Source: a virus. Taken from it: DNA of 64,000 bases. The position numbers were made by a program, and so were the translations under genes. The DNA lies in IMG/VR virus record IMGVR_UViG_3300027969_000063, positions 41,517-105,516 of that record. One strand, given 5' to 3'. Numbering within the stretch: the stretch's first letter is position 1; each line of letters starts with the position of its first letter. Under the pieces are notes generated by a model. That model ran no database searches and was not told where the DNA came from. It worked only from the letters and a program-made list of their open reading frames with translations. Positions 38,996 through 63,867 of the stretch are shown piece after piece.

Positions 38996-39792
38996 GTTAT
39001 CCTATCCCATAAATCTCTCCACCCTAAGTGAGTGGTTCTTATTGTTGCCGGTTCATTAAATGAAAGATGATACGCTACAGATGGTATTGGACTAAACACC
39101 TTTACATGACCTGTACCTTCTTCATAGTTCTCATATAACTTGTTTATAAACTGATCTTCTGCCGCATCAGGAAAGGTCAAAGCCAATCCTTTAAATACTT
39201 CAAAATTATCTTTAAAGAAACTTTGATGTGCAAATATGGTATTGGCAGTATGGCGAACTTGCCTCCAATACCGAACACCATCATATAGAAGAATAGTAAG
39301 ATACTCTCTACCTACATCATATCTAAATGCACAATCATAAGGATACAAAGCAATTGGATTTGGATATTTTTGTGTCAAATAATTATAAGCAATCAACATA
39401 CTGTTTAAAGCATTCTCTTCGTGCAAATAATCATCTTCTACCGAATATACCATATCTTCGGACTCAGCACACATCTCAAACTGCTTAAGTGCTGATTGTT
39501 TAAATCCTTTAGTTTCTAAACTGATTAACTCAACTTCTTTACTACACTTACTTAACACTTCTCTTAAATCTACCAAAAAAGATTCAATACTATTATCATC
39601 CAGTACGGTCAATTTAATATCTTCAACGACCACACAGTTATTGATTGCATTTACTAAAGACGTGGCACACTTTAGGACCATACCTTTCCTGTCGTCACCA
39701 CATATTCTTGGTAACTGCTGAACTGTTGGTTGATTAGTGCCTTGCTTAGGTACTTCTTTCTCACAAGTCCTTAGTATGACATGAAGCTTCAT
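38992..39792 (-). CDS. GT-A fold glycosyltransferase (paralog)
   Basis: LDDNS, VYSVEDDYLH, SPIPSVAYH. Confidence 0.75.
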   Translation of the reverse strand: MKLHVILRTCEKEVPKQGTNQPTVQQLPRICGDDRKGMVLKCATSLVNAINNCVVVEDIKLTVLDDNSIESFLVDLREVLSKCSKEVELISLETKGFKQSALKQFEMCAESEDMVYSVEDDYLHEENALNSMLIAYNYLTQKYPNPIALYPYDCAFRYDVGREYLTILLYDGVRYWRQVRHTANTIFAHQSFFKDNFEVFKGLALTFPDAAEDQFINKLYENYEEGTGHVKVFSPIPSVAYHLSFNEPATIRTTHLGWRDLWDRIT

Positions 39793-41210: not shown

Positions 41211-41212
41211 TA

Positions 41213-43046: not shown

Positions 43047-46000
43047 TTACCTTCTAAAGTTACTTCCAGCACCACCAGAGAATAGGTTGGCGGTATAACC
43101 TGTGGCTAATTGTGCTACTAATACCGGACTAGATCTTGTGACAGTTGATCCATCACCGTACTGACCTACAGCATTATTACCCCAAGCATACAGGTAACTA
43201 TTGGTTTCATTATCAGTTGTAATGGCTATCGTGGTATTATTACCTATAGCAACATCAATAATATTTAAATTTGATATGGCTATATTTACAATGTCGGGAG
43301 TGGACCTACTGGTTGGAACAGTATTAAAACCAAAAGCATTATTGGTATTTGCACCCCATGCATATAAGGAATCAGATAAATTAATACCAAAAGCTGTACT
43401 AAGTCCAATAGATAAAGATTTCCAACCTAAACCTTTTGAATTTTTAATATTTGATTGATTTATTATGGCAGCTCGATCTGTAACACTGGCAGGACTAACT
43501 GTGGTTCCAATACCCATTTGTCCATAAGTATTGTTTCCATAACCATAAGATACATTATTATTATCTAAAAGAAGATAATATTGTACACCACCACCGCCAC
43601 CAGTAACAGCTGTTTTCCATGGCACTCCAGTTGATGCGGAATTTGAAACGATTGATGGTACACCTCCGCCATTTCCCCAATTAAACAAACGGCCAGCAAT
43701 ATCAATAGCTACCGAACTATTACCATTACAATTTATAAAAGAAAAAGAAGATCCACTAACAACCGTTACAGGAGTTGATTTAGAAATTACGGTATTATCA
43801 CCTATTTGACCACTAGAGTTACCGCCCCATCCAAATAAACGGCCTGTGTTAGTAATAGCATGGCCAGCTGTTACCATTGTCCATGAAACTGTGGTAGAAC
43901 CTTCAGCACCAATTTTAACCGGAGATGATCTATTAATTAAAGTACCGTCACCTAAATCACCACTACTATTATCACCCCATGCATATAAAGCACCAGTTAT
44001 ATCAATAGCAAAATTATTATAAGAACCAGCATATACAGATGACCATGAAGATGTACCAATTTTTACAGGAGAAGATTTATTAATAGTTGTACCATCACCG
44101 AATGCGCCAAATAGACCAGTTCCCCAAATGTATAAAGCACCCGTAGTATCAATAGCAATAGTGTTGACATATCCAGCACTTACTGCTGACCATGATTTGG
44201 TACCAATTTTTACTGGAGAAGATTTATCAATCGTAGTACCATCACCTAATTGGCCATTAACATTATAACCCCATGTATAAAGAGCACCTGTAGTATCAAT
44301 AGCTGCTGAATGTCGATTTATTCCAACACTAAGTATAGTCCAAGAATTGCCAAACAAAAGTTGTGGAACAGTTTGTCTTTCAGTAAATGTATTACCTGCT
44401 ATACCGTTACCTAACATTCCATCATTATTGGAACCCCATGTATAAAGAGAACCATCATCACTTATACCACCAGAAGTGGGGCCAAGAGCGCCACCAGTTC
44501 TAAGTAATTTCCAAGATGTAAATGGCTTAGAGTTTGTAATTATTATTGGTTGTGATTTACCAATTGTTGTACCATCACCTAATTGTCCATATTGGTTATC
44601 ACCCCAAATATAATTATATCCATTTTTAACTCCTGTAGTATTTTGATAGTGCGCTTTTACTGAAGTCCAAGGATAAACATCAATTAATACAGGCGAAGAT
44701 TTATCAACTATAGTACCGTCACCCAATCGGCCAGAATTATTGGAGCCCCATGCATGCAATTGGCCAGCAGCAGTAAGACCGACTGTAAAATAGTTACCAA
44801 CACTCACTATTGACCATGAACTTGTACCAATTTTTACCGGTGTAGATTTACCAATTGTTGTGCCATCGCCTAAATTACCACTTGAATTAGCGCCCCATGT
44901 GTACAGAGCACCAGTAGTAGTAATAGCAGCAGTATGGGAACCATCAGCAGATACCGCTGACCATGAAGAATAACTGTTTAATGCTTCGTTTATCACAGAA
45001 ACTAATACTGGTGAAGATTTAGAAACTGTTGAGGTATCACCTAATTGTCCTTGATTATTATAACCCCATACATATGCATTGTTTGCAGTAGTAATGGCTG
45101 CTGTGTTATATTGTGAAGCACTCACGGCTGACCATGAAGAAGAGGAATAACCACTAGTAGTTGTCGAAAGCTGAACAGGTACCGATCTACTAGCTGTTGA
45201 AAGGCCACCTAAGTTACCATAAGGATTGTAACCCCATAACCATAAAGAACCAAGCGTATCAATAGCAGTAGAAGTAGAATATCCAGCAGAAACAAAATTA
45301 AAAGAAATGTTTGATGTGGTATCATAAGGATAACCTAATACAACAGGAGAACTTGTTAAATTGCTAGGTAATATATTAAAATAATTAATACTACCCCAAT
45401 TCCATAAAAGACCATTAATATCAATCGCTGATACATTTGATGTCATTGAAAATACTTTTGTCCATGAGCTAGTACCAATTTGTACTGGTGATGATTTATT
45501 GATTGTAGTGCCATCACCTAATTGGCCTTGAGCATTATAACCCCAAACGTATAAAGCACCATTTGTGGCAATACCTGCTGATGTTGAAAAACCAGATGAT
45601 ATTGCTGACCATGAACTAGAACCAATTTTTATTGGTACTGATCTATTAGATGTTGTACCGTCACCTAAGAAACCTAAGTTATTTTGGCCCCATGCATACA
45701 AAGAACCAGTAGTATCAATACCAAGAACATAACCAGATCCAGCACTTACTGTAGTCCATGAAGAATAAATGGCAGCTGCATTATTTCCAATACCAATGAA
45801 TACTGGTGAAGATTTATTAATTGTGGTACCGTCACCTAAACCACCATAAAGATTATAACCCCATGTATATAAATTACCAGAAGTGGTAATACCAATAACA
45901 CCGAAAATATCTGAACCTATGAATGACCATGAGCTTGTACCAATTTGTACAGGTGAGGATTGATTAATTGTTGTACCATCACCTAGTTGGCCATAAGTAT

Positions 46001-49000
46001 TACTACCCCATGCAAATAATCGGCCATTAATATCAATAGCTCTGTGACCATCGTATCCTGCAGCTAACTTAGACCATGAACTTGTACCAATTTTAACGGG
46101 TGATGATTTATTAATTGTAGTACCATCACCCAATTCACCATTGCTATTATTGCCCCATGTAAATAAGCTGCCATCTTTTGTAATACCAGCTGTATTAGAT
46201 GGACCACTTATGGATATGATTGTCCATGAACTCGAACCAATTTTTATTGGAAATGATTGATTAGTTGTATTACCGTTGCCTAACTGACCAGTAGAATTAG
46301 TACCAGTCATCCATAAACCACCATTAACATCAATTCCTCCTGTGTGGTTGTAACCAAGGCTCACTATTGTAAATGAAGAACCACTATTAATTAATACCGG
46401 TGAGGATTTAGCAACTATAGTACCGTCACCTAATGCACCATTGGTGTTATTGCCCCATGCATACCAAGCACCAGAAGAGGTAATACCTGCCATGTAACTT
46501 ACACCTGCAGCCACAAATGCCCATGAAGATGTGCCAATTTGTACAGGTGAAGATTTAGTGACTGTGGTATTATCACCTAATTGGCCGGCAGTATTTTGAC
46601 CCCATGTGTATAGACGGCCGTTAATATCAATACCTGCTGAAGCAAGTCCTTTTACGCTTACTCTAGTCCATGAAGAGCTACCAATTTTAATTGGTGCTGA
46701 TTTATTATTTGCAGTATTATCACCTAATTGACCATTAGGATTATAACCCCATGTATATAAAGCACCAGTAGAGGTAATAATTGCTTGATTATATTGACCA
46801 GAAGCTACTTGATTCCAAGAAGAATAATATACTGAAGATGTTTGAATTTTCACCGGCAATACATAAGAAAGATTTAAACCTAAATCCGTACCAATTTCTC
46901 CAAAACTATTATCTCCCCATGCCCATAAAGCACCAGTAGAATCAATTGCGCTCGTATGATACGAACCAACAGATACAGATGTCCATGAAGAACTACCAAT
47001 TTGTACAGGTGATGATTTGGCAACCAATGTACCATCACCTAAATTACCAAAACCATTAGCTCCCCAAGTAAATAACCGACCATTAATATCAATTGCTGCA
47101 GTGTTATTACCAACACTTACTTTTGTCCATGAGCTAGTACCAATTTGTATTGGTGATGATTTATTAACCGTAGTACCATCGCCTAATTGTCCATTAGAGC
47201 CACTACCCCACGCAAACAATCGACCTACAGTATCAATTGCTGTTACATAAGAAGTGCCTGCAGCTATAGCTAACCATGAAGAAGAACCAATTTTTACTGG
47301 AGAAAATCTAGTAGTTACTGTACCGTCACCTAATTGGCCTTGTTGATTGTCACCCCATGACCACAATGATGAATCTGAATTTTTAATGGCTAAAAAGAAA
47401 TTAGCAGGACCTCCAGTAATTTGTTTCCATGCACCTGGTATACTTGGTGTTGTAACTACTGGTGAAGATTTATTAATTGTTGTGCCATCACCTAATTGTC
47501 CAAGAGAATTATCACCCCAAGCATATAATTTTTTAAGCGAATCGCTAGCAATGGTGTGTGCTTGGCCTGCACTTACTGCTGACCATGATGAAGTACCAAG
47601 TTGTACTGCAGAAAGTTTATCAATCGTGTTACCGTTACCCAATTGACCTGCAGCATTACCACCCCATGTATATAATTTACCACTAGTGGTGATAGCCGCT
47701 GTGTGCGATACGCCAGCAGTTACAACTGTCCATGAAGAATAGACGTTTAATACAGGATCATATGCAGTAACGAATACAGGAGAAGATTTGGAAGTTGCCG
47801 TACCATCGCCTAATTGGCCTGATGTACCAAGACCCCACATGTATGCTGTATTTGCAGTAGTAACCGCAGCAGTATGAGTACCACCAGCAGATACAGATGT
47901 CCAAGATAAAATTGATGGATTGCTAGTTGGGCCAACTTTAAATGCTGTAGTTTTGTTTATTGTTGTGCCATCACCTAATTGACCGGTAGCATTACCACCC
48001 CAAACATATAACGTGTTTGCAGTAGAAATAGCAGCAGTATGAGAACCACCAGCAGATACGGATGTCCAAGATACAATTGGATTAGTTGGAGCTAAAACAA
48101 ATACAGGCGATGATTTGCTAACAACAGTATTATCACCCAATTCACCAGAGGTACCAAGACCCCATGTAAACAGAACACCAGTTGTTGTGATACCCGCTGT
48201 GGTTGAACCGCCTGCACCTATTGATGACCATGAGCTTGTACCAATTTTTACTGGAGAGGATTTATTAACAGTAGTACCATCGCCTAATATACCACCAGCA
48301 TTATTACCCCATGTATATAAAGCGCCTGTAGTATCAATAGCGGCTATACTACCATTACCAACGTTTGACACAACTGCAATCCATGAACTTGTACCAATTT
48401 TTACTGGAGAGGATTTGGCAATTGTAGTACCATCACCCAAGTAACCTGTGTCAGAAGCATTAGCACTCCATGTAAACAAAGATCCATCAATAGTAATACC
48501 TGCACCAGCAGTTACTACTGACCACGAACTAGATCCAATTTTAACAGGAGAAGATTTAGTAACACTTGTGTTATCACCTAATTGGCCAACATTACCAAAA
48601 CCCCAAGCATATAAAGCACCAGTAATATCAATAGCCCAAGCATTAAGTGAACCAGCAGCTACTTTTGTCCATGAAGAAGAACCAATTTTGACTGGTGAAG
48701 ATTTAGTAACTGTAGTATTATCACCCAATGCACCAAAACTACCACTACCCCATGTCCATAAAGCACCAGTGGAATCAATCGCAACTGCGTGCTGATTTCC
48801 AGCAGCTATTGTACTCCATGAATTATTACCAATTTGTACTGGTGAAGATTTAGTAACTGTAGTACCGTCACCTAATTGTCCAACGTTGTTGTAACCCCAT
48901 GCATACAGAGCACCAGCAGTAGTAATACCAAACGCAACTTGAACTCCTGCAGCTACTACTGACCATGATGATGATCCAATTTTTACTGGTGAAGATTTAT

Positions 49001-51152
49001 TAACTGCTGTATTATCGCCTAATTGACCTATAGCGCCATTACCCCATGTCCATAAACCACCAGTAGTATCAATAGCAACTGCAGCTGATATGTTATAACT
49101 TATTTGACTCCATGTGCTTGGTATAGTAACAGTTGTTTGTACAGGAGTAGATTTATTAATTGTAGTACCATCACCTAATTGGCCGGTAGCATTATTACCC
49201 CAAGCAAACAATTTACCATCTGATGTAATACCGGTTGAGTGTGTACTACCAGCACTTACTGATGACCATGAACTGGATCCAATTTGTACAGGTGAAGATT
49301 TGTTTATTGTTGTACCATCACCTAAGTGACCGTTAGTATTTTGACCCCAAGTATATAAGGCACCGGTAGTGGTGATACCTGCTGTATGTGAAGCACCAGC
49401 TGATGCTACTGACCACGATGATGTACCAATTTTTACTGGTGAAGATTTGGCAACTGTAGTATTATCACCAATTTGACCGGTAGCATTAGAACCCCACGCA
49501 TATAAATTACCATTAATATCAGTAGCGGTAGTATGTATATCACCAGCAGATACAGATGACCAAGAAGAAGATCCAATTTTTACTGGTGAAGATTTTGAAA
49601 CTATTGTGCCATCGCCTAATTGTCCTGAAGTACCAAAACCCCAAGCATATAAAGCACCAGTAGAATCAATAGCAACTATATGTGAATTGCCTGCAGATAC
49701 AGATGACCATGAAGATGTACCAATTTTAACTGGTGAAGATTTTGAAACTACTGTATTATCACCCAATTGTCCTATGGAATTATTACCCCAAGTATATAAG
49801 GCACCGGTAGTGGTGATACCTGCTGTAAATGTTCCATTTCTATTAGCTGAAAGTTGTTTCCAAGTAGGCGCTGAGATTATAGGAATTAATACGGGTGACG
49901 ATCTATTAGTTGTGGTGCCGTCACCAATTTGACCAGTAACATTATAACCCCATGCATATAAATTACCATTAATATCGGTAGCAGATGTGTGATATTGTCC
50001 AGCACTTACTGTTGTCCATGAAGAAGAACCAATTTTAACGGGAGAAGATTTAGCAACGGTAGTATTATCACCTAAACCACCATAATTATTATAACCCCAA
50101 GCATAGAGCGCACCAGTAGAATCAATGGCGGCCATATGTGAAAAACCGGCTGATACTATTGACCATGAGTTTGAACCAATTTTAACAGGAGAAGATTTAG
50201 AAACTATTGTATTATCGCCTAATGCACCATAATTGGTGTTATTGCCCCATGTATACAAAGCACCATTAGTGGTGATACCTGCTGTAAATCCTGCTCCAAT
50301 ACTAGTTACAATTTGTTTGAAAGAAAAATTACCATTTGCAAAACCAATTTGTGTTGGTGTACTATAATATGGTTGACCCGTTATGTAACCAACTTGACCC
50401 GCATCATTTTGACCCCAAGCCCATAGTCCGCCATTTGTTGTAATACCTGTTACATATTGACTTCCAGCACTTACAGATGTCCATGAAGATGTACCAATTA
50501 ATACCGGCGATGATTTATTAATTGTAGTACCATCACCTAATTGATTACTACTATTTAAACCCCATGTATACAAAACGCCAAGTGAATCAATTGCTGCTGT
50601 ATAAGATTGTCCTGCACTCACTATACTCCAAGATTTATTTCCAAGTTGTGTTGGTGTTGATTTGTCAATTGTAGTACCATCACCTAATTGGCCATTATTA
50701 TTAAGGCCCCATACAAACAAAGCACCATCAGTAGTACGAATGGCTGCAAAATGATTGCCAACACCTTGACCTCCTGTAATTGATTTCCAAGGATACTCAA
50801 CAGTTTTTGTTATTGATATTGCTACTGGTGAAGATTTGTTAATTGTAGTACCATCACCAATTTGATAAGCTGAATTATTACCCCATGTGTATAATTTATT
50901 ACCTGTTACAACACCAAAATTAGCATAACCAGATTCAAGTGCTGTAATACTTCCTAAAGGTATTGATGTTGGAGTGGATTTACTGACTGTTGTACCATCA
51001 CCAAGTTCTCCGTTGCTAGCGTTACCTAATACATATAAAGTTTGAGCTGCATCTAATATAGCTGTAGTACCAGAGCTAGTTGTTGCTATTTTTGTAACAG
51101 TATTAGCAGTTGATAAAACTGGAACTTGTGTTGGAAATGAAGTAGTGGTCAT
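43047..51152 (-). CDS. Giant RCC1-repeat beta-propeller protein (2701 aa), probable virion appendage
   Basis: About 52 repeats of SW..VSAG..H..AI...G.LY.WG.N..GQLGDGTT..KSSPV.IG. Confidence 0.88.
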   Translation of the reverse strand: MTTTSFPTQVPVLSTANTVTKIATTSSGTTAILDAAQTLYVLGNASNGELGDGTTVSKSTPTSIPLGSITALESGYANFGVVTGNKLYTWGNNSAYQIGDGTTINKSSPVAISITKTVEYPWKSITGGQGVGNHFAAIRTTDGALFVWGLNNNGQLGDGTTIDKSTPTQLGNKSWSIVSAGQSYTAAIDSLGVLYTWGLNSSNQLGDGTTINKSSPVLIGTSSWTSVSAGSQYVTGITTNGGLWAWGQNDAGQVGYITGQPYYSTPTQIGFANGNFSFKQIVTSIGAGFTAGITTNGALYTWGNNTNYGALGDNTIVSKSSPVKIGSNSWSIVSAGFSHMAAIDSTGALYAWGYNNYGGLGDNTTVAKSSPVKIGSSSWTTVSAGQYHTSATDINGNLYAWGYNVTGQIGDGTTTNRSSPVLIPIISAPTWKQLSANRNGTFTAGITTTGALYTWGNNSIGQLGDNTVVSKSSPVKIGTSSWSSVSAGNSHIVAIDSTGALYAWGFGTSGQLGDGTIVSKSSPVKIGSSSWSSVSAGDIHTTATDINGNLYAWGSNATGQIGDNTTVAKSSPVKIGTSSWSVASAGASHTAGITTTGALYTWGQNTNGHLGDGTTINKSSPVQIGSSSWSSVSAGSTHSTGITSDGKLFAWGNNATGQLGDGTTINKSTPVQTTVTIPSTWSQISYNISAAVAIDTTGGLWTWGNGAIGQLGDNTAVNKSSPVKIGSSSWSVVAAGVQVAFGITTAGALYAWGYNNVGQLGDGTTVTKSSPVQIGNNSWSTIAAGNQHAVAIDSTGALWTWGSGSFGALGDNTTVTKSSPVKIGSSSWTKVAAGSLNAWAIDITGALYAWGFGNVGQLGDNTSVTKSSPVKIGSSSWSVVTAGAGITIDGSLFTWSANASDTGYLGDGTTIAKSSPVKIGTSSWIAVVSNVGNGSIAAIDTTGALYTWGNNAGGILGDGTTVNKSSPVKIGTSSWSSIGAGGSTTAGITTTGVLFTWGLGTSGELGDNTVVSKSSPVFVLAPTNPIVSWTSVSAGGSHTAAISTANTLYVWGGNATGQLGDGTTINKTTAFKVGPTSNPSILSWTSVSAGGTHTAAVTTANTAYMWGLGTSGQLGDGTATSKSSPVFVTAYDPVLNVYSSWTVVTAGVSHTAAITTSGKLYTWGGNAAGQLGNGNTIDKLSAVQLGTSSWSAVSAGQAHTIASDSLKKLYAWGDNSLGQLGDGTTINKSSPVVTTPSIPGAWKQITGGPANFFLAIKNSDSSLWSWGDNQQGQLGDGTVTTRFSPVKIGSSSWLAIAAGTSYVTAIDTVGRLFAWGSGSNGQLGDGTTVNKSSPIQIGTSSWTKVSVGNNTAAIDINGRLFTWGANGFGNLGDGTLVAKSSPVQIGSSSWTSVSVGSYHTSAIDSTGALWAWGDNSFGEIGTDLGLNLSYVLPVKIQTSSVYYSSWNQVASGQYNQAIITSTGALYTWGYNPNGQLGDNTANNKSAPIKIGSSSWTRVSVKGLASAGIDINGRLYTWGQNTAGQLGDNTTVTKSSPVQIGTSSWAFVAAGVSYMAGITSSGAWYAWGNNTNGALGDGTIVAKSSPVLINSGSSFTIVSLGYNHTGGIDVNGGLWMTGTNSTGQLGNGNTTNQSFPIKIGSSSWTIISISGPSNTAGITKDGSLFTWGNNSNGELGDGTTINKSSPVKIGTSSWSKLAAGYDGHRAIDINGRLFAWGSNTYGQLGDGTTINQSSPVQIGTSSWSFIGSDIFGVIGITTSGNLYTWGYNLYGGLGDGTTINKSSPVFIGIGNNAAAIYSSWTTVSAGSGYVLGIDTTGSLYAWGQNNLGFLGDGTTSNRSVPIKIGSSSWSAISSGFSTSAGIATNGALYVWGYNAQGQLGDGTTINKSSPVQIGTSSWTKVFSMTSNVSAIDINGLLWNWGSINYFNILPSNLTSSPVVLGYPYDTTSNISFNFVSAGYSTSTAIDTLGSLWLWGYNPYGNLGGLSTASRSVPVQLSTTTSGYSSSSWSAVSASQYNTAAITTANNAYVWGYNNQGQLGDTSTVSKSSPVLVSVINEALNSYSSWSAVSADGSHTAAITTTGALYTWGANSSGNLGDGTTIGKSTPVKIGTSSWSIVSVGNYFTVGLTAAGQLHAWGSNNSGRLGDGTIVDKSSPVLIDVYPWTSVKAHYQNTTGVKNGYNYIWGDNQYGQLGDGTTIGKSQPIIITNSKPFTSWKLLRTGGALGPTSGGISDDGSLYTWGSNNDGMLGNGIAGNTFTERQTVPQLLFGNSWTILSVGINRHSAAIDTTGALYTWGYNVNGQLGDGTTIDKSSPVKIGTKSWSAVSAGYVNTIAIDTTGALYIWGTGLFGAFGDGTTINKSSPVKIGTSSWSSVYAGSYNNFAIDITGALYAWGDNSSGDLGDGTLINRSSPVKIGAEGSTTVSWTMVTAGHAITNTGRLFGWGGNSSGQIGDNTVISKSTPVTVVSGSSFSFINCNGNSSVAIDIAGRLFNWGNGGGVPSIVSNSASTGVPWKTAVTGGGGGVQYYLLLDNNNVSYGYGNNTYGQMGIGTTVSPASVTDRAAIINQSNIKNSKGLGWKSLSIGLSTAFGINLSDSLYAWGANTNNAFGFNTVPTSRSTPDIVNIAISNLNIIDVAIGNNTTIAITTDNETNSYLYAWGNNAVGQYGDGSTVTRSSPVLVAQLATGYTANLFSGGAGSNFRR

Positions 51153-51177
51153 ATTTTTTTATTTTATTAATATCTAA

Positions 51178-51185
51178 TATTTATC
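51178..51185 (-). promoter_or_regulatory. Late-promoter-like element
   Basis: GATAAATA overlapping the stop of the 4228-aa ORF. Confidence 0.45.
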
Positions 51186-57100: not shown

Positions 57101-60100
57101 GGACTAACATTGGTGTTATTGTTACCGCTTAAATAATAACCATTATAACCCCAATGCCATAAAGTATTAGTGCTATCAATAGCACAGCTCGCTAAAGCAG
57201 TTTTTGCAAATATCCAACTTCTATCAATACCAATTTGTACAGGTGAAGATTTAGACACGTTAGTACCATCACCTAATTCATATGAGGAATTATAACCCCA
57301 TGTAAACAAACGGCTATTAATATCAATAGCAGATGAAGAGGAATAACCAGCACGCACAAATGACCATGAGCTATTACCAATTTGTACCGGCGAAGCAGCT
57401 GTATATTGAGCAACTGTTGTACCATCACCTAAATTACCATAAGTATTATTAAGTAAACCCCATAAACGACCAACGGTATCAATTGCAAGAATATGAGCTG
57501 CACCTTGAGATGACATTACAAATGAGTTGCCTGCACCCATTTGTACTGGTGAATTTCCTTGTCCTAAACTAGAACCCCAAAAATATAATCGACCACTGGT
57601 ATCAATGGCTGAAAATCCAGCACATTGAAGATCCGTAGCACCTAAAGCTGTCCAGCTTTTATCAGTACCAATTTGTACAGGAGAAGATTTATGAGTAAAT
57701 GTTGAAGCATTATTAATATCACCTAACTGAGAAGCATCATTTGAACCCCATGTGAATAGGCGACCATCAACCGTAATACCTGCTGAAGATGACCTACACA
57801 CCGCTACTGTTGTCCATGAAGAAGTACCAATTTGCATGGCACTATATTGTTTATTTCCTGTTCCTGAATTAACTGAATTATTACCTATTTGGCCACTTCC
57901 ATTAGCACCCCATGCCCATAAAGCACCGGTAGAATCGATGGCTAATGCATGTTGACCTATTGAAACTTTTTTCCAATTACCCGATAATGCAACCGCTACT
58001 GGTGATGATTTATTAACCGCTGTACCATCACCTGGATTGTTACCCCAACTATATGCTTTACCTGTACTATCAATTGCAGATGTAAAAAAGTTACCTGCAG
58101 CCACTTTTGTCCATGAACTAGAGCCAATTTTAACTGGTGAAGATTTTGAAACTGTAGTGCCATCACCTAATTGGCCATAGGTAGCATTAGAACCCCACAC
58201 ATATAAAGCACCTGTAATATCAACAGCAGCTGAATGAGAATTACCAGCAGCTACATATGCCCATGATGATGTACCAATTTTAACTGGCGAAGATTTATCG
58301 ATGGTAGTACCATCACCTAATTGACCGGCAATATTTCGGCCCCACGCCCACAATGATGAATCTTGATTACGAATTGCTAATGTAAAAAATTCATTTTGAG
58401 AAATTTGTTTCCATGTAGCTGTTGTGGATCCAATTAATTGAACGGCTCGAGATTTATCAATTGCAGTATTGTCACTCAATTGACCATTAGAATTATAACC
58501 CCATGCCCACAAAGAACCAGTATAATCAATAGCAGTTGTATGGTAATTACCAGAACTTATTTTTGACCATGATGTATATGAATTTAATGTTTGAGTAAGA
58601 GAAGCGGTAAAAGCAGCAAGAACAACAGGAGAAGATTTGGAAATTGTTGTGCCATCACCAATTGCACCTGATGTGCCAAGACCCCAAACAAATAAATTAC
58701 CATTAACATCAATAGCGGATGTGTGTGTTTGTCCAGCGTATACGGCTGACCATGATGAGGTACCAATTTGTACAGGAGAAGATTTATTAACTGTTTGTCC
58801 ATCACCTAATTGGCCATTAGCATCATTACCCCATGTAAACAAACGACCAACAGAATCAATAGCGGCACAATGAGATTGTCCTGCACTAACAAATGACCAT
58901 GAAGATGAACCAATTTTGGTTGGTAATGATTTTTGAACTGTAGTGCCATCACCTAATTGACCATTAGAACCACTACCCCAAACATATAGAGAACCATCAA
59001 TAGTAATAGCTAATGTATTGGAACCTCCAACAGAAACTTTTGCCCATGAAGAAGAACCTACTTGTACGGGCGATGATTTAGTAACAGTAGTGCCATCGCC
59101 TAAGTTTGCTAAGTTACCATAACCCCATGTAAACAAACGGCCATTAATATCAATAGCGGCCGTATTTGAAGTGCCAGCTGATGCTACTGACCATGAAGAA
59201 GCACCAATTAATGTAGGATTAGATTTACTGGTAGCAGTACTATCACCTATTTGTCCATTAATACCACTACCCCATGTATATAATTTTCCTGTTGTATCAA
59301 TAGCAGCATTATGTAGATAACCTACGGATAGTAATGACCATGAACTTGAACCAATTTTAACCGGAGAAGATTTAGCAACAGTTGTGTTATCACCTAACTG
59401 ACCATAAGTAACGTTACTACCCCATGCATACAAAGCACCAGTAGAATCAATAGCAACTGCATGTGAAAAACCAGCACCAATTTGACTCCACGAAGAAGTA
59501 CCAATTTGTATTGGTGAAGATTTAGCAACTATTGTATTGTCACCTAATTGACCACCGTTATTAGAACCCCATGCCCATAAAGAACCATTAGAACGAATAC
59601 CAAATGTATCTTGAAATGTACCGGGTCCGCCACCTGCTGCGGTTTTACTCCAATAAACTGGTTCTGTATATGTTACAGCTGCAGCTCCAGCTTTTACCGG
59701 TGTGGATCTAGTAACTGTAGTGCCATCACCTAATTGTCCATAAACATTTTCACCCCAAGAATAGATTTGACCATTACTGGATTTTGCTACTGAATAATAG
59801 GTACCAACATCCAAATCAGTCCAAGTAGATGGTATAGTAAATGGTATGACGCTAGTTGAAATTGTTGGAGAATTTACAGGAGTAATATCTGTAATTGGTG
59901 ATGATTGACAAGTCATCAATTTTGTATTTGCTATTGCTGATATTGGTTGAGTTGGTACAGTAAATAATGATCCACTATAAACTGCTGTGCCGTTAACAAA
60001 ACGGAAGTTAGAAATATTTCCAGCAAATGTTGCAGCACCACTACCATCTGCTCCAATTCTTAATGATCCATTTCCTATTGTGCCGGCTTGTGTATCTGTT

Positions 60101-63100
60101 GTTGCATCAAGAGTACCATTAACATATAATTTAACTGTTGAACCTGAACGAACTACAGCAATATGAGCCCATGTATTAATAGACAATGTGCTAGTATAAG
60201 TGGTTGAAATATTACCGTATAGATTTGAAGTTATAGTATTTCCTACTAAAAACCAAGTGTATCTGCCAGTAGCTTCTGAGCCCAATGTAAACAAAGAACG
60301 AGTACCTGTTACGCTAGTTGGATAGTACCAACCTTCAACAGTAAAATCACCAGTACAATTGTATGTCGAATTTATATAACCGGTATTTGTGGTTAAGTAT
60401 TGATTTGTTCCGTTAAATAATACAGAATTAAAACCAAGAGTGCCGGTTGGAATGCTAATTGCTACAGGAGAGGATCTATTTGTAAAAGTATTATCGGCTG
60501 TTGCATTACTATAAGGATTATAACCCCATCCAAATAAAGCACCAGTAGAAGTAATGCCATTTGCCCAATAATTTCCAAGAGATATTACCGACCACGATGA
60601 TGAACCAATTTTTACTGGCGCAGATTTGTTAACTGTAGTACCATCACCTAATTGTCCATAACCATTATACCCCCATGTGTATAAAGCACCAGTAGAATCA
60701 ATGGCGGCCGTACCTAAGTCGCCAACTGCCACGGATGTCCATGAAGAGTTGCCAATTTTAACTGGTGTTGATTTATTAACAGTAGTACCATCACCTAGTT
60801 GACCATTAGTATTATTACCCCATGTGTATAAAGCACCTGTGTTAGTGATACCAGCAAACTGTACTCCATTATCACCAGTAGCAAGTTGTACCCAAGAGTA
60901 TGTTGATCCTGAATTAGCAATTTGTGTTGGTGTACTATAATTTGCAAAGCCAGTTAAGTATCCAATTTGGCCTTGAACATTACTACCCCATGCCCACAAT
61001 TTACCATCTGATGTAATACCTGTTGTAAATAAAGATCCTGCAGATACAGATGACCATGAGCTTGTACCAATTTTTACTGGTGAGGATTTACTAACGGTAG
61101 TATTGTCACCTAATTGATAAGAGCCATTAAATCCCCAAGTATATAAAGCACCTGTAGTATCAATAGCAGCTGTGTGTGTTGATGAAGCAGTTATGGATGT
61201 CCATGAAGAGTTGCCGATTTTAACAGGCAATGATTTGCTAACTGTAGTACCATCACCTAATTTTCCAATTGCACCATCACCCCACGCATACAAAGCACCA
61301 AGCGAATCAATAGCAACCGAATGTGAATATCCAGCACTTACTTTTGACCAAGATTTGGCACTAATTAATACTGGAGAGGATCTAGTAACTACAGTACCAT
61401 CACCAAGTTGACCGCTAGCATTACCACCCCATCCATATAAAAGTCCAGTATTAGAAATAGCTAATGTGTGGCTAACTCCTTCCGAAATTTGAGCCCAAGA
61501 ATGTGGTGTTGCAGAATTAGGAAGTTTTGTTGGTACAGTATATAATGATTGGTTAATAAAGTTTCCAAGTTGGCCAAAAGTATTACTACCCCATGTCCAT
61601 AATGAACCATCGGTTGCAATTGCAGTAGTGTGAGAATCACCAGTACCTATGGATGTCCATGAATTAGAACTTCTTAATGGATATATTATGGTATTTAATG
61701 AAGAAACAACACCACCATTATTAGTAATTGTAAACGCATTGGTGCTGTTATCAATGAATGTGTCTGATTGACAAGTTAACAATGCTGTGTTGGCAATAGC
61801 AGTCAATGGTACAGATAATGTGTTAAAGTCAGATGTATATACAGCAGTACCTTTAACAAAACGAAGATTAGAAATAGAACCAGTAAATCTACTACCACCA
61901 GCGGAAACTGCCTCACCAATGTATAGAGGTTGAGCATTACCATTAAGTGTGGTGGTATTTGTAAATTGTAGAACAGCACGGCCATCCACATAAACTGTGT
62001 TGTTGTTTGTGCCTGAACCATTTCTAACCCAAGCTACATGATGCCAAGTACCATCAGTAATTGGTACTGAAATATCATTTAGTGCCGATTGGCCAATGAT
62101 AGCTCTAAGTAAATTTGATTTAAATCCAAAATTCCATTCACCTAATGCACCTGTGTTATATTGACTAATTATACTAGCGGTTTGAGCATCACTACCATAA
62201 GTTGTATTGAGCCAAGCTTCAATTGTAAAATCACCACTACCTGGCTGATTTGCTACAGTATTAGGAGTACTCAAATAACAACCGCCAGCTCCATTAAATT
62301 GTGAAGCAAAAGTACTAAATGTATTAAGAGCACCAACTTGTACAGGTGAAGATTTACTAATTGTAGTACCATCACCTAATTGATAAGAACCATTTAAACC
62401 CCAAGCATATAATTTTCCATCTGAAGTGACACCAAATCCTGCAGAGTTACCGGCGTTTACTGTTGACCAAGAACTTGTACCAATTTGTACTGGCATTGAT
62501 TTATTAACTACAGTACCATCACCTAATTGTCCAGCAGTATTATTACCCCATGCCCACAATGTTGAATCTTGATTACGAATTGCTAGTGTAAAATTGGCAC
62601 CAGGAGCTTTAGATGCAGAAACAATTCTCCATGAGGAATATGATGCAACAGTATTAACCACTACAGGAGATGATCTATCAATAGATGTACCATCACCTAA
62701 ACCACCCAAATAAGTACCGTTATTTGAACCCCAAGCATATAATGTGCCAAGGCTGGTAACAGCAAATGCTTGAGAATTTCCAACACTTACTGTTGACCAT
62801 GAGCTTGTACCAATTTGTACTGGAGATGATTTAGTAATCGTAGTGCCGTCACCTAATTGACCATTAGCATTAAGCCCCCAAGTAAACAAACGTCCAACAG
62901 TATCAATGGCAGCTGAATAAGAATTAGCTGCACTTATTTTTGACCAAGAGGATGAACCAATTTTAACTGGTGATGATCTAATAGATGCTGTGTTATCACC
63001 TAAAGCACCACTATTAAAACCCCATGCATACAATGCGCCAGTAGAATCAATAGCAATTGTATGAATTTGGCCAGTTGATACTGTTGACCATGAAGAATTG

Positions 63101-63867
63101 CCAATTTTAGTTGGTGCGTATTTAGTGGTACTAGTGTTATCACCTAATTGTCCGCTGGTACCAAGACCCCACATATACAAAGCACCGGTAGTATCAATAG
63201 CAGCTGAAAAATTTGTACCAGCACTTACTACTGACCAAGACCTAGATTTTGAAATTAAAACTGGTTTTGATCTATAACTAACTGTACCAACAGTACCATC
63301 ACCTATTTGGCCACTAGTGGCCAAACCCCAACCCCATAAAGAATAATCCGATTTTCTAATAGCTAATGAATGTACTTGTCCCACACTTACTGCTGCCCAA
63401 GAAGCATAAGATGCAGAATCAATAAAAGTTGTAATTTGAACTGGACTAGAACGATTTTCTACATCTGCTACACCTAGTTCACCAAAACTATTTCTACCCC
63501 ATGACCATAAAGTACCAGCAATAGTTAAACCAACAGTACTATCTGCTTGTGCTGTTACTGATGTCCATGATGATGAACCAATTTTAACCGGTGTTGATTT
63601 ATTAATTGTTGTACCATCACCAAGTTGACCATATTGGTTAAACCCGGTCATGTACAAGCTACCATCAGAATAAACGATGGCTGTATGGTTGTTACCTGTA
63701 GAGGATGTTGGAGAGAACTGTGCGTTTAATGAAACAGGAGTAGACCTGTTGATTGTTGTACCATCACCTAATTGACCATAACTATTCAGACCCCAAGCAT
63801 ACAGAGTTGTCTTAGGTATGTTACTAATGTTTTGTGTTGGTAACGATATGTAGTGGTAGAATAACAT
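51181..63867 (-). CDS. Giant RCC1-repeat protein (4228 aa) with two LamG/ConA-like lectin domains
   Basis: About 73 RCC1 repeats; LamG motifs GDFTIEAW...WHHVAWVR...ISNLRFVKGTAVY at about 61680-62320 and 59835-60445. Confidence 0.88.
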   Translation of the reverse strand: MLFYHYISLPTQNISNIPKTTLYAWGLNSYGQLGDGTTINRSTPVSLNAQFSPTSSTGNNHTAIVYSDGSLYMTGFNQYGQLGDGTTINKSTPVKIGSSSWTSVTAQADSTVGLTIAGTLWSWGRNSFGELGVADVENRSSPVQITTFIDSASYASWAAVSVGQVHSLAIRKSDYSLWGWGLATSGQIGDGTVGTVSYRSKPVLISKSRSWSVVSAGTNFSAAIDTTGALYMWGLGTSGQLGDNTSTTKYAPTKIGNSSWSTVSTGQIHTIAIDSTGALYAWGFNSGALGDNTASIRSSPVKIGSSSWSKISAANSYSAAIDTVGRLFTWGLNANGQLGDGTTITKSSPVQIGTSSWSTVSVGNSQAFAVTSLGTLYAWGSNNGTYLGGLGDGTSIDRSSPVVVNTVASYSSWRIVSASKAPGANFTLAIRNQDSTLWAWGNNTAGQLGDGTVVNKSMPVQIGTSSWSTVNAGNSAGFGVTSDGKLYAWGLNGSYQLGDGTTISKSSPVQVGALNTFSTFASQFNGAGGCYLSTPNTVANQPGSGDFTIEAWLNTTYGSDAQTASIISQYNTGALGEWNFGFKSNLLRAIIGQSALNDISVPITDGTWHHVAWVRNGSGTNNNTVYVDGRAVLQFTNTTTLNGNAQPLYIGEAVSAGGSRFTGSISNLRFVKGTAVYTSDFNTLSVPLTAIANTALLTCQSDTFIDNSTNAFTITNNGGVVSSLNTIIYPLRSSNSWTSIGTGDSHTTAIATDGSLWTWGSNTFGQLGNFINQSLYTVPTKLPNSATPHSWAQISEGVSHTLAISNTGLLYGWGGNASGQLGDGTVVTRSSPVLISAKSWSKVSAGYSHSVAIDSLGALYAWGDGAIGKLGDGTTVSKSLPVKIGNSSWTSITASSTHTAAIDTTGALYTWGFNGSYQLGDNTTVSKSSPVKIGTSSWSSVSAGSLFTTGITSDGKLWAWGSNVQGQIGYLTGFANYSTPTQIANSGSTYSWVQLATGDNGVQFAGITNTGALYTWGNNTNGQLGDGTTVNKSTPVKIGNSSWTSVAVGDLGTAAIDSTGALYTWGYNGYGQLGDGTTVNKSAPVKIGSSSWSVISLGNYWANGITSTGALFGWGYNPYSNATADNTFTNRSSPVAISIPTGTLGFNSVLFNGTNQYLTTNTGYINSTYNCTGDFTVEGWYYPTSVTGTRSLFTLGSEATGRYTWFLVGNTITSNLYGNISTTYTSTLSINTWAHIAVVRSGSTVKLYVNGTLDATTDTQAGTIGNGSLRIGADGSGAATFAGNISNFRFVNGTAVYSGSLFTVPTQPISAIANTKLMTCQSSPITDITPVNSPTISTSVIPFTIPSTWTDLDVGTYYSVAKSSNGQIYSWGENVYGQLGDGTTVTRSTPVKAGAAAVTYTEPVYWSKTAAGGGPGTFQDTFGIRSNGSLWAWGSNNGGQLGDNTIVAKSSPIQIGTSSWSQIGAGFSHAVAIDSTGALYAWGSNVTYGQLGDNTTVAKSSPVKIGSSSWSLLSVGYLHNAAIDTTGKLYTWGSGINGQIGDSTATSKSNPTLIGASSWSVASAGTSNTAAIDINGRLFTWGYGNLANLGDGTTVTKSSPVQVGSSSWAKVSVGGSNTLAITIDGSLYVWGSGSNGQLGDGTTVQKSLPTKIGSSSWSFVSAGQSHCAAIDSVGRLFTWGNDANGQLGDGQTVNKSSPVQIGTSSWSAVYAGQTHTSAIDVNGNLFVWGLGTSGAIGDGTTISKSSPVVLAAFTASLTQTLNSYTSWSKISSGNYHTTAIDYTGSLWAWGYNSNGQLSDNTAIDKSRAVQLIGSTTATWKQISQNEFFTLAIRNQDSSLWAWGRNIAGQLGDGTTIDKSSPVKIGTSSWAYVAAGNSHSAAVDITGALYVWGSNATYGQLGDGTTVSKSSPVKIGSSSWTKVAAGNFFTSAIDSTGKAYSWGNNPGDGTAVNKSSPVAVALSGNWKKVSIGQHALAIDSTGALWAWGANGSGQIGNNSVNSGTGNKQYSAMQIGTSSWTTVAVCRSSSAGITVDGRLFTWGSNDASQLGDINNASTFTHKSSPVQIGTDKSWTALGATDLQCAGFSAIDTSGRLYFWGSSLGQGNSPVQMGAGNSFVMSSQGAAHILAIDTVGRLWGLLNNTYGNLGDGTTVAQYTAASPVQIGNSSWSFVRAGYSSSSAIDINSRLFTWGYNSSYELGDGTNVSKSSPVQIGIDRSWIFAKTALASCAIDSTNTLWHWGYNGYYLSGNNNTNVSPIMTTLPNLSGLSPNSIEITQQNILAYNSGGNLYVWGDNTYGQLADGSGVATKSSPVFVKSTPLAPSTQSWTSLSAANRTFAIDNLGNLYTWASGGAAGQVSNKPATVPLSKISIDTNQNAYAVDNNQNLYTISLYYNNYGGSLYGFGPKVSSVSAGTNHYMLIDTLNRLWVWGNNSTYQLGDGTTTTVSAPKRIIGVGASSWSKISAGHSYTMGITISGELYGWGYNAQGQLGIGNATTPQTTPQKIGTSSWAMVATGKSAFTTLAIDAVGRLFAWGSGSIGQNGFNSVNYSSPVQIGPAGSSWTMVSISQSHCAAIDTLGRIWTWGASYSGGLGNGQTFIVTPTQIYGTNSYTQVSAGWDYTYAIDTTGALYTWGQNSDGRLGDGTVISRSSPTKIGTSSWSFVDAGYTQPVAIATDGTAYSAAGSPPFQLSSLTALNVDSTTVTYSSWSFVNAGGSTQSAIDTNGSLYMWGYQKALSGSYTFIPGIYGQQNLSYPTKIVSTYSWSSISTGSQHVAAITSTGALFAWGYNGYGNLGDNTTVDKTSPVQIGTSSWSAVAVNMPASALYNYTTGILSNGTLYTWGSNQYGQLADNSTVSKSSPVLLSTLADTVTGSSLPSWTSVSAGASGGAAITTTGALWTWGSGTYGALGDNTTTTKSTAARIGTSSWSVVSAGNNNTKAIDITGNLYAWGLNTSGQLGDRSVTSRSSPVLVTAYNEALNVYSSWTAVSAGTNYTTAIDTTGALYGWGYNAYGQLGNNSTTNNISPVKIGSSSWTKVAAGDLHTMGIDINSRLYGWGYNGLGNLGDNTVTTRSSPVQIGTSSWTTVAVSNGSSFTTAINLTGNLFAWGFNSSYQLGDGTTITRSSPVTVSNVYNETTYVYSSWSAVAVGGTHTAAITSARALFAWGLNNVGQLGDGTTINKFSPVQIGTDSWSSVALGNSYTTAINTIGRLFTWGQNTSGQLGDGTTISKSSPVIIQQANTSTTISSTWSEVSRGLNNSHTLAIRAEDSTLWAWGQNSVGNLGDGTTISKSTPIQIGSNLDTPTGYRTWSKVSAGGFGVVNAMSAAIDSTGALWTWGSSASGQLGDNAGVSKSSPAKIGTSSWSAVSVGYSNVLAIDTNGRLYAWGDNAVGQLGDGTLVAKSSPVQIGTSSWSMVSCGDSRGAAIDINGRLFMWGNNSLGQLGDNTSAGKSSPVQIGTSSWILISVGFSTTAAIDTTGALYTWGWNASGFMGDGTTINKSSPVKIGTRAWTKVVTSNYATTAIDSIGNLWAWGSNAGGAFGDGTITNRSSPVQVSTSSWTKLSSGQGSSAIDNTGRLFAWGVNNYGQLGDNTIVDKSSPVQIGATVILSTYYSWTVVSAGLDSTFALNTLGRLYSWGNGATSQLGDGGATRSSPVQVGSLSWTTVSAGSTHAAAINTTGNVYTWGLNTSGQLGDGTTTNRNVQTINSVPYSYNTTSWSYVGLSNAIDSTGALYAWGVNASGQLGDGTTISRSVPIKIGSSSWSVVNGNPFSNNNNLGLDINGRLFTWGLASSYQLGDVTTTSKSSPVQIGLDTVVADTSFNLISSGTGNFFYGRGISGSLYGWGNNTNSQLGLGTNPLVNNPQKTLVTTNFYNTSATWKKISLGASHTMAIDTTGGLWVWGLNTSGQLGDNTIVSKSSPVKLGTSSWTFVKASHFISIAITTQGALYAWGFNDRGNPANASAGASTSSPVLCYAGSSFSFVGTNSANNAGGTAYCSTFLLNNNGVATFTGYSVTGEKGDNTSGGFGSSTGQPLTGSSWTIVDVGGGRTGATPGGYVVGITTAGALYAWGDALSGALGDGTVTTKTSWVNKIGNSSWAFVQASSNRTTVGIDIQGRLFMWGDNTWGSLGDGTTINKSSPVQVGNSSWVSVSASFGQILAVDSSGRLFAWGLNSSGQMGDGTTINKSSPVQISVGKSNWISVATGQGHSAAIDSTNTLYTWGLDSNGQLGNLR

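What the first reader, a model, noticed from the sequence alone, without database searches (positions are those of the whole stretch)
43047..63867. Nested tree of 18 seven-bladed RCC1 propellers
Seen: blades are joined either by the short 'PVxIG-xSSW' turn or by longer linkers. Run lengths between long linkers in the 4228-aa ORF are 2.5,5,2,[LamG],1,4,3,[LamG],1,7,1,3,7,1,7,3,2,3,2,7,2,2,1,7. In the 2701-aa ORF they are 2,3,3,5,7,2,2,4,7,3,2,3,7,1,1.5. Read as nested brackets, every open set closes at exactly 7 blades: 5+2; 2+1+2+2; 4+3; 3+1+1+2; 3+1+3; 3+3+1; 3+2+2; 5+2; 4+3. The total is 126 = 18x7. Internal check: in both ORFs the entry linker GY(L/I)TG..YSTPTQI is matched by the exit linker NEALN.YSSW at the position this parse predicts. 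Established: RCC1 repeats form 7-bladed propellers. Inference: the propellers are inserted into loops of other propellers, up to 7 levels deep, giving a branched multivalent virion appendage rather than a bead string. A few boundaries were my judgement calls.
Basis: partly seen in the sequence, partly recalled or inferred. Interest (0 to 1): 0.92.

Follow-up and report, generated by a model that had tools for sequence, protein, structure and literature searches.

The report
Giant two-gene RCC1 propeller array
Two neighbouring genes of a T4-like marine phage encode about 126 RCC1 "blades", enough for 18 seven-bladed propellers, but my tests could not show whether these propellers sit inside one another as proposed or lie in a row.

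Summary
The observation largely holds. A blade HMM built from the sequence finds 74 blades in the 4228-aa ORF (two marginal) and 52 in the 2701-aa ORF, 126 in all. Junctions between blades are either the tight PVxIGxSSW turn or longer linkers, and two LamG domains sit in such junctions.

"Every set closes at 7" is not diagnostic: 82% of shuffled run orders also parse, and the real order has 7 valid parses.

Some sequence evidence does favour propellers inserted into propellers:
- a spike of exact 7-blade runs across the family;
- a|7|b flanks summing to 7 more often than chance (p=0.006);
- one ortholog with a plain 7-run where this protein has 4|7|3;
- orthologs that differ by multiples of 7 blades.

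The one usable AlphaFold model (pLDDT 85.6) makes blades 2-8 a single consecutive propeller. Indirect read-outs suggest consecutive rings after it.

Verdict: partly supported. I put some nesting at about 0.5 and the exact 7-level tree at about 0.15. The scan has made the same reading on at least five other genomes.

The parts
51181..63867 (-). ORF A, 4228 aa (P0001): 74 RCC1 blades (2 marginal) and 2 LamG domains. It begins with a half blade (strands C-D) and ends after strand C of its last blade.
43047..51152 (-). ORF B, 2701 aa (P0002): 52 RCC1 blades. It begins with a lone D strand and ends with a half blade (strands A-B).
51111..51303 (-). Split blade. A ends ...WGLDSNGQLGNLR plus a stop. 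A 28-nt AT-rich spacer follows, in another frame. B then starts MTTTSFPTQVPV, which is the missing D strand.
   Evidence: The split is conserved in P0006/P0009, which the search lists with the same longest-contig length. About 33 giant relatives end this way and about 28 start this way.
63733..63807 (-). N-terminal half blade of A (strands C-D, residues 21-45).
43050..43121 (-). C-terminal tail of B (..LATGYTANLFSGGAGSNFRR), read as strands A-B of a half blade. It is conserved in all five B-type orthologs.
   Evidence: The strand assignment is my inference.
61669..62337 (-). LamG (concanavalin-like) domain 1, inserted in a D->A junction between blades 10 and 11 of A.
59830..60459 (-). LamG domain 2, inserted in a D->A junction between blades 18 and 19 of A.
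49869..50906 (-). B blades 2-8 (runs 1|3|3). AlphaFold2 predicts them as one closed seven-bladed RCC1-like propeller.
   Evidence: pLDDT 85.6. UVR8 4d9s_B Z 46.9, rmsd 1.6 over 337 residues, with most RLD rows spanning model 20-365.
47742..49889 (-). B blades 9-22 (runs 5|7|1|1). This 14-blade block is either nested (5+[7]+2) or two consecutive rings.
   Evidence: The topology is unresolved.
48102..49127 (-). B blades 14-20: a tight 7-run flanked by long linkers (TTVTIPSTW before it, FVLAPTNPIVSW after it).
45801..46847 (-). B blades 29-35: a tight 7-run inside 4|7|3. Ortholog P0022 has a plain 7-run in place of the 14 blades.
58621..59691 (-). A blades 20-26: a tight 7-run flanked by the isolated single blades 19 and 27.
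60913..60963 (-). A 'entry' linker GYLTGFANYSTPTQI.
54919..54951 (-). A 'exit' linker NEALNVYSSW.
50340..50390 (-). B 'entry' linker GYITGQPYYSTPTQI.
44958..44990 (-). B 'exit' linker NEALNSYSSW.

Best explanation
A and B are two halves of one giant RCC1-repeat assembly of a T4-like marine phage.

Shown:
- There are about 126 blades.
- Blades are intact hairpin units joined by tight or long D->A junctions.
- LamG domains are inserted in such junctions.
- A stops inside a blade and B supplies the missing D strand. This break is conserved across many relatives.
- Relatives change size in steps of seven blades.

Inferred:
- The blades fold into 18 seven-bladed propellers.
- The two chains are held together by strand complementation at the split blade.
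- A's N-terminal half blade probably pairs with B's C-terminal half blade.
- Some complete 7-blade propellers, namely the tight 7-runs flanked by long linkers, sit as domain insertions in D->A loops of host propellers. Examples are 5+[7]+1+1 and 4+[7]+3 in B, and 1,[4+3],1,[7],1.. in A. The LamG domains sit in the same kind of loop.
- The nesting is probably shallow, and the exact tree is not determined.
- The product is most likely a virion-surface, multivalent glycan-binding fibre or whisker. This rests on the genes lying just upstream of the neck genes gp13/14/15, on the lectin-type LamG domains, and on RCC1-like domains in proteins annotated as phage tail fibres.
For: - Blade count and junction classes.
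- No B->C linkers anywhere in A or B, so there are no classical tandem RLDs each with its own closure.
- Consecutive rings bounded by long linkers are impossible for B at all 7 phases.
- Family run-length histogram: 75 runs of exactly 7, between 63 at length 6 and 19 at length 8. My extrapolation of the decay (ratio about 0.62 from the count at 6) expects about 39.
- The runs flanking a 7-run sum to 7 in 12 of 72 cases, against 7.9% +/- 3.1% in shuffles (p=0.006).
- B-type orthologs have 45, 45, 52, 52 and 73 blades, all 3 mod 7; A has 74, which is 4 mod 7.
- P0022 is 341 aa shorter than B and has a tight 7-run where B has 4|7|3.
- P0027 carries LamG domains inside otherwise tight runs.
- A stack parse driven by the blade signature W-K-x / W-x-Q predicts 6 of 6 exits (B) and 7 of 7 exits (P0003) at long linkers. 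Random labels achieve this with P=0.001 and 0.0004.
- 52 of 93 complete relatives have a unit count that is a multiple of 7.
- In the AlphaFold2 model pLDDT drops at the 8|9 and 13|14 linkers but stays at 92-93 across the tight 15|16 turn.
- Gene context (neck, sheath, terminase, collagen-like fibre protein).
- RCC1-like domains in proteins annotated as tail fibres (phages PollyC, Littlefix).
- Domain insertion between blades of an RCC1-like domain is known in UBR5: PMC10830417.
Against: - No coordinates could be inspected, so no nested ring was ever seen.
- Double-propeller templates (Aip1, 2ymu, Elp2, GH74) align to the model over residues 21 to about 726-810, with 441-460 residues aligned. 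That fits a second ring of consecutive blades better than 5+[7]+2.
- AlphaFold2 closed blades 2-8 with long linkers inside the ring. Long linkers therefore need not be exits.
- More distant relatives have tight runs of 10-39 blades, and A itself has runs of 10 and 8.
- The general suffix+prefix=7 test shows no enrichment: 45.8% observed against 45.9% in shuffles.
- The signature parse fails for A, P0006, P0009, P0022 and P0027. For B the rule was defined after I had looked at B.
- P0003 admits two different parses that both score perfectly.
- Blade-to-blade identity cannot locate the B/P0022 indel.
- Related proteins share ancestry, so the family p-values are optimistic.
Confidence: 0.5

Rival explanations
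1. A plain string of propellers. The 126 blades form 18 rings from consecutive blades, for example B 2-8, 9-15, 16-22 ... 44-50. The chain crosses from ring to ring even through tight turns. The long D->A linkers are only variable surface loops and sites for LamG insertion. Only the two chain ends come together.
For: - AlphaFold2 ring 2-8 contains long linkers.
- Double-propeller templates align as two successive rings over model 21 to about 750.
- With phase 1, five of the eight ring boundaries in B fall on long linkers.
- Relatives have tight runs far above 7.
- All-tight 14- and 21-unit relatives exist.
- Contiguous double propellers such as Aip1 are established structures.
- Earlier follow-ups on other genomes also report that structure prediction did not reproduce nesting (unchecked notes).
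Against: - This model cuts both tight 7-runs of B, which are out of phase, and gives no reason for the spike at 7.
- It does not explain the a+b=7 enrichment or the success of the stack parse.
- pLDDT is 92-93 at the supposed inter-ring turn 15|16, against 47 at the 8|9 hinge.
- The AlphaFold2 alignment came from generic 21-unit relatives and may bias the model towards consecutive rings.
Confidence: 0.35
2. There are 18 propellers nested up to 7 levels deep. The groupings are 5+2, 2+1+2+2, 4+3, 3+1+1+2, 3+1+3, 3+3+1, 3+2+2, 5+2 and 4+3. The root propeller is shared by both chains.
For: - The signature-driven stack parse of B reproduces this tree except for its last blade.
- The GY..YSTPTQ and NEALN linkers enclose 35 blades in B, 34+1 in A, and 28, 28 and 56 in orthologs.
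Against: - It is one of 7 valid parses for B alone, and 82% of shuffles parse.
- AlphaFold2 puts blades 2-8 in one ring.
- A's middle region needs judgement calls.
- The enclosed counts in orthologs are not independent, because all the indels are multiples of 7.
Confidence: 0.15
3. The blades do not close into discrete seven-bladed rings throughout. Parts of the array could form open spirals or larger rings. The terminal half blades could pair between molecules, so that A-B units polymerise head to tail into a fibre.
For: - The ends of the double-propeller alignments slide between model residues 726 and 810 instead of locking on one ring end.
- pTM is only 0.43 although local confidence is high.
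- Several UVR8 rows in Foldseek reach TM only 0.64-0.65 over about 360-415 columns.
- The half blades at the two ends, and the split blade, are the kind of joints that could also act between molecules (inference).
Against: - The sevens rule across the family and the spike at 7 point to closed seven-bladed rings.
- Blades 2-8 close into a canonical ring in the model.
- Every solved RCC1-like domain that matched is a closed propeller.
Confidence: 0.1

Closest known systems
RCC1-like domains (RLDs): RCC1, UVR8, HERC1/HERC2 RLDs, RPGR, BLIP-II
   Same: Same repeat family by Pfam and by sequence match to solved chains. Predicted blades 2-8 of B superpose on UVR8 with Z 46.9 and rmsd 1.6 A over 337 residues, and on HERC2 RLD3 with Z 43.8. 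Rings are seven-bladed.
   Different: These are single rings of about 350-400 aa, closed by N-terminal and C-terminal strands of one chain. Here there are about 126 blades in two chains and no B->C inter-domain linkers. The only half blades are at the extreme ends of the pair.
Interrupted RCC1-like domain of UBR5 (PDB 8p82, 8e0q; PMC10830417)
   Same: A seven-bladed RLD that tolerates large insertions. A stretch of about 270 residues with the UBA domain sits in blade 2, and more than 220 residues with dSBB domains sit between blades 5 and 6. The LamG insertions at D->A junctions here are the same kind of event.
   Different: The inserted domains in UBR5 are not propellers and there is no recursion. 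Here the proposed insert is another complete RLD, possibly several levels deep, and this is not shown.
Contiguous double propellers: Aip1 (1pgu, 1nr0), EML1 TAPE domain (4ci8), the 14-blade WD40 protein 2ymu
   Same: Many repeats in an unbroken row fold into successive seven-bladed rings without long linkers. They align to the model over two rings' worth of residues. This is the template for the consecutive rival.
   Different: They are WD40-type blades with a different closure, have only two rings, and are not phage proteins. The alignments are loose (rmsd 11-13 A, Z 13-14).
Sec13-Nup145C insertion blade (3jrp)
   Same: A propeller is completed in trans by another polypeptide (established knowledge; the entry appears at Z 13.2). 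This is the closest analogue for the A/B split blade.
   Different: There a whole blade fills an open six-bladed WD40 ring. Here a single D strand, and possibly a half blade at the other end, would be donated. Binding of A to B was not tested.
Phage proteins with RCC1-like domains annotated as tail fibres (Pseudomonas phages PollyC and Littlefix) and classical tandem RCC1 relatives such as P0130
   Same: RCC1-like domains occur in phage proteins annotated as fibres. P0130 shows three rings in a row, 7[8]7[8]7.
   Different: Those have one to three rings, and the linkers lie at the B->C junction. A and B have long linkers only at D->A junctions and are 10 to 50 times larger.

Membership tests
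RCC1-like domain (RLD) repeat family | RCC1 repeat profile matches above the curated cut-off. | tested here: met
   PF00415 scores 1566 and 1226 bits (cut-off 21.7). PF25390 WD40_RLD scores 2400 and 1658 bits (cut-off 150).
RCC1-like domain (RLD) repeat family | Blades fold into a closed seven-bladed propeller. | tested here: met
   By prediction only, and only for B blades 2-8: AlphaFold2 pLDDT 85.6; UVR8 Z 46.9, rmsd 1.6 A over 337 residues. The other rings could not be read.
RCC1-like domain (RLD) repeat family | Ring closed by N-terminal strands pairing with C-terminal strands of the same domain. | tested here: inconclusive
   Half blades exist only at A's N-terminus and B's C-terminus. 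Their pairing is inferred. UBR5 confirms this closure for a solved RLD.
Classical tandem RLD proteins (separate rings joined by inter-domain linkers) | A linker at the B->C junction every seven units. | tested here: not met
   B->C gaps are 0 at nearly every unit of A and B. Relatives such as P0130 do have 7[8]7[8]7.
LamG / concanavalin-like lectin domain | Laminin_G_3 profile match above the cut-off, placed in D->A junctions. | tested here: met
   Pfam Laminin_G_3 scores 109.7 bits (cut-off 27.6) with 2 stretches in A. They lie between blades 10|11 and 18|19.
   The AlphaFold2 model was obtained, but no contacts can be read from it. The VIA ranges lean towards consecutive rings. Sequence statistics lean towards nesting.
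   82% of shuffled run orders parse, and the real order has 7 parses.
   Blade counts are B 52, P0022 45 and P0003 73. P0022 has a 7-run where B has 4|7|3. A consecutive model also allows such an indel.
Virion structural protein (fibre or whisker) | Presence in the particle. | not testable with these tools
   Only gene position next to the neck and tail genes is available.

The most novel reading that the evidence does not exclude
RCC1 propellers are used as a recursive building block. Complete seven-bladed rings are spliced into the bottom-face D->A loops of other rings, several levels deep. The whole tree is spread over two polypeptides that lock together by sharing blades. The result would be a branched, multivalent phage appendage, a protein architecture I found described in no paper.
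Probability: 0.3. Interest if true: 0.85.

Novelty: new variant of a known kind. Interest (0 to 1): 0.62.

Why it matters
- If propellers really are inserted recursively into propellers, this would be a new way to build very large branched binding surfaces from one repeat. It would be of interest for protein architecture, protein design and phage host recognition.
- Even without nesting, these are among the largest phage proteins. They belong to a very large marine family: more than 4000 giant relatives scored E<=0.001 among the 8000 candidates.
- They obey a strict sevens rule.
- They are routinely encoded as two or three genes broken inside a blade. That points to a conserved strand-swap joint between structural proteins, which can be tested directly by co-expression.

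Tried and rejected
- AlphaFold2 job 1 (B 274-1240, 6-row alignment) failed with pLDDT 37.6.
- Complex prediction on B blades 9-15 against 16-22 was meant to read out intertwining. It gave ipSAE 0.11 and 0.00, which is no verdict. It is reported only here and counts neither way.
- Foldseek against PDB and BFVD gives no aligned ranges, so the topology could not be decoded.
- In pdb_via every single-propeller row aligns on ring 2-8 (a few ranges carry stray extensions), so the other rings were never tested one at a time.
Ortholog DNA slices and gene context were therefore not available.
- The metagenome scan with B's tail gave only 2 weak loci. The viral scan gave 4 loci.
- Tiling the window's own blades as alignment rows failed, because MAFFT re-tiled them by identity.
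- Whole-protein alignments were too slow or too large.
- Blade-by-blade identity between B and P0022 is too uniform (summed scores 335-366 for all 8 placements) to place the 7-blade indel.
- Strict regular expressions for entry and exit linkers do not bracket correctly in B, because the entry after blade 8 has lost its motif.
- The opening-blade signature rule fails for A, P0006, P0009, P0022 and P0027.
- An alternating 8,7,8,7 reading of B was dropped. RCC1-like rings are seven-bladed, and AlphaFold2 closed blades 2-8 rather than 6-13.
- Literature searches found no paper on nested or giant phage RCC1 proteins.
Full report
**Context**

The window is a T4-like marine myophage, with all genes on the minus strand. 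PHROGs finds a tail sheath, large terminase, tail sheath stabilizer, head closure protein, head-tail adaptor and a collagen-like fibre protein at 29.9-38.2 kb. The closest GenBank phages are only about 65% identical in DNA: cyanophages P-SSM3 and ACG-2014b, and pelagiphage Mosig. The two ORFs of the finding lie directly upstream of the neck genes. Four small ORFs separate them from those genes; two have methyltransferase-like matches.

**The observation**

ORF A (51181-63867, 4228 aa) and ORF B (43047-51152, 2701 aa) are RCC1 repeats from end to end. A also has two Laminin_G_3 domains.

I built a 49-residue blade HMM from six clean repeats and iterated it. It finds 72 clear and 2 marginal blades in A, and 52 in B, which is 126.

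I then rebuilt the model in the C-D-A-B register.
- The B->C hairpin is tight at essentially every unit.
- The junction that varies is D->A. It is either the tight PVxIGxSSW turn or carries 3-12 extra residues, or a whole LamG domain.

With "long" defined as 3 or more extra residues, B reads 2,3,3,5,7,1,1,2,4,7,3,1,1,3,4,3,1,1.5.

**The split between the ORFs**

A ends ...GQLGNLR directly after strand C of its last blade. A 28-nt AT-rich spacer follows, and B begins in another frame with MTTTSFPTQVPV, which is a D strand.

A starts with strands C-D only. B ends with a conserved tail that I read as strands A-B.

Across the family about 33 giant proteins stop at this point in a blade and about 28 start with M..SSPVQ. 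Two proteins do both. The split is therefore a conserved design and not a sequencing error.

**Is "closing at 7" meaningful?**

No. A dynamic-programming parser for nested groups of 7 accepts 82% of 20,000 shuffles of B's runs, and it finds 7 different parses of the real order.

What is informative is the negative result. No phase allows consecutive rings whose boundaries all fall on long linkers.

**Family evidence**

More than 4000 proteins of 1485-4727 aa match.

B-type orthologs share the C-terminal tail. They have 45, 45, 52, 52 and 73 blades, all 3 mod 7. A has 74, which is 4 mod 7.

P0022 is 341 aa shorter than B. It has one tight 7-run where B has 4|7|3. P0027 has three LamG domains inside otherwise tight runs.

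In 86 linker-rich giants the run-length histogram decays smoothly except for a spike at 7: 63 at length 6, 75 at length 7, 19 at length 8.

The two runs flanking a 7-run sum to 7 in 12 of 72 cases, against 7.9% in shuffles (p=0.006). A looser suffix+prefix test shows nothing.

Among 93 relatives that start at strand C and end at strand B, 52 have a unit count that is a multiple of 7.

Medium-sized relatives are mostly exactly 21 or 14 units. Some are clean 7[8]7[8]7 with linkers at B->C, which is the classical tandem arrangement. A and B do not use that arrangement.

**A deterministic test**

Blades that follow long linkers often start W-K-x or W-x-Q. I let each such blade open a ring and closed every ring at 7 blades.
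- All 6 predicted exits in B and all 7 in P0003 fall on long linkers.
- Random labels achieve this with P=0.001 and 0.0004.

There are three caveats.
- I defined the rule after looking at B.
- It fails for A and four orthologs, whose opening blades lack the signature.
- P0003 also has a different bracket parse, read by hand from the linkers, that is equally perfect (enclosing 7, 7, 7, 21, 42 and 56 blades). The tree is therefore not unique.

**Structure prediction**

Job 1 had a 6-row alignment and failed.

For job 2 I used B 64-1132 (blades 2-22) with 69 relatives. It gave pLDDT 85.6 and pTM 0.43. Confidence is low only at the chain ends and at the 8|9 and 13|14 linkers.

Every RCC1-like structure in the PDB aligns to model residues 20-365, which are blades 2-8. 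For UVR8 the figures are Z 46.9, rmsd 1.6 A, 337 residues. So AlphaFold2 makes one consecutive ring out of runs 1|3|3, with long linkers inside it. The construct lacked the partners that tree would need, so this weakens the tree and does not refute it.

I could not obtain coordinates. The arrangement of blades 9-22 could only be probed indirectly.
- Double-propeller templates (Aip1, 2ymu, Elp2, GH74) align over model 21 to about 726-810 with 441-460 residues. That looks like a second ring of consecutive blades. A 5+[7]+2 ring would require the range to reach about 1065.
- Against that, pLDDT is 92-93 across the tight 15|16 turn, where a consecutive model must break the ring.

A two-chain run meant to read out intertwining gave no verdict.

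**Reading**

What I consider solid:
- blades come in sevens;
- the two chains share blades;
- D->A loops take inserted domains;
- the 7-run is a discrete module.

Whether 7-runs are rings inserted into host rings is open.

The function is inferred from gene position, the LamG domains and RCC1-like domains in proteins annotated as tail fibres. It is most likely a multivalent adhesive fibre on the virion.

**Comparison with what is known**

The closest known cases are:
- ordinary RCC1-like domains;
- the interrupted RCC1-like domain of UBR5, which has other domains inserted in and between its blades (PMC10830417);
- contiguous double propellers such as Aip1;
- Sec13-Nup145C, for completion of a propeller in trans.

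I found no paper that describes propellers nested in propellers or giant phage RCC1 arrays.

The scan has already made this reading on at least five other genomes. Most follow-ups also ended at "partly supported" and did not reproduce the nesting by structure prediction.

Noticed in passing
window 51100-51260, and relatives P0003-P0241: Breaking the gene inside a blade is a family habit. About 33 giant RCC1 proteins end right after WG.N..GQLG.., and about 28 start with M..(S/T)SP(V/T)Q. P0083 and P0094 do both, which suggests chains of three genes.
   Followed up: partly
proteins P0122-P0241: Medium-sized relatives are mostly exactly 21 or 14 units long. They start at strand C and end at strand B. 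Some have clean 7[8]7[8]7 linkers at the B->C junction (P0130), and others have no linker at all (P0167, P0208, P0126, P0148). How the linker-free ones close into rings is unexplained.
   Followed up: partly
window 38219-42988 (-): Four ORFs lie between the RCC1 giants and the neck genes. The 591-aa and 473-aa proteins have methyltransferase-like matches. The 266-aa and 258-aa proteins match nothing in Pfam or PHROGs.
   Followed up: partly
window 33786-35405 (-): A 539-aa collagen-repeat protein with many tail-fibre PHROG matches sits between the tail sheath stabilizer gene and the large terminase gene.
   Followed up: no
L001:3-10733 (IMGVR_UViG_3300027708_000238): A relative with the same gene order. 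It has a 5'-open RCC1 ORF of 2491 aa with 47 blades, followed by 591-aa and 477-aa ORFs as in the window.
   Followed up: partly
protein P0027: This B-type ortholog has three LamG domains, each placed inside a run that is tight in B and P0022 (2[L]1, 2[L]3, 1[L]1). This shows that D->A junctions are hot spots for domain insertion.
   Followed up: partly
proteins P0010, P0007, P0005: More distant giants have tight D->A runs of 10-39 blades. Their irregular junctions lie in the C->D loop instead, roughly every 7-8 blades. Ring boundaries may sit at a different loop in that branch.
   Followed up: no
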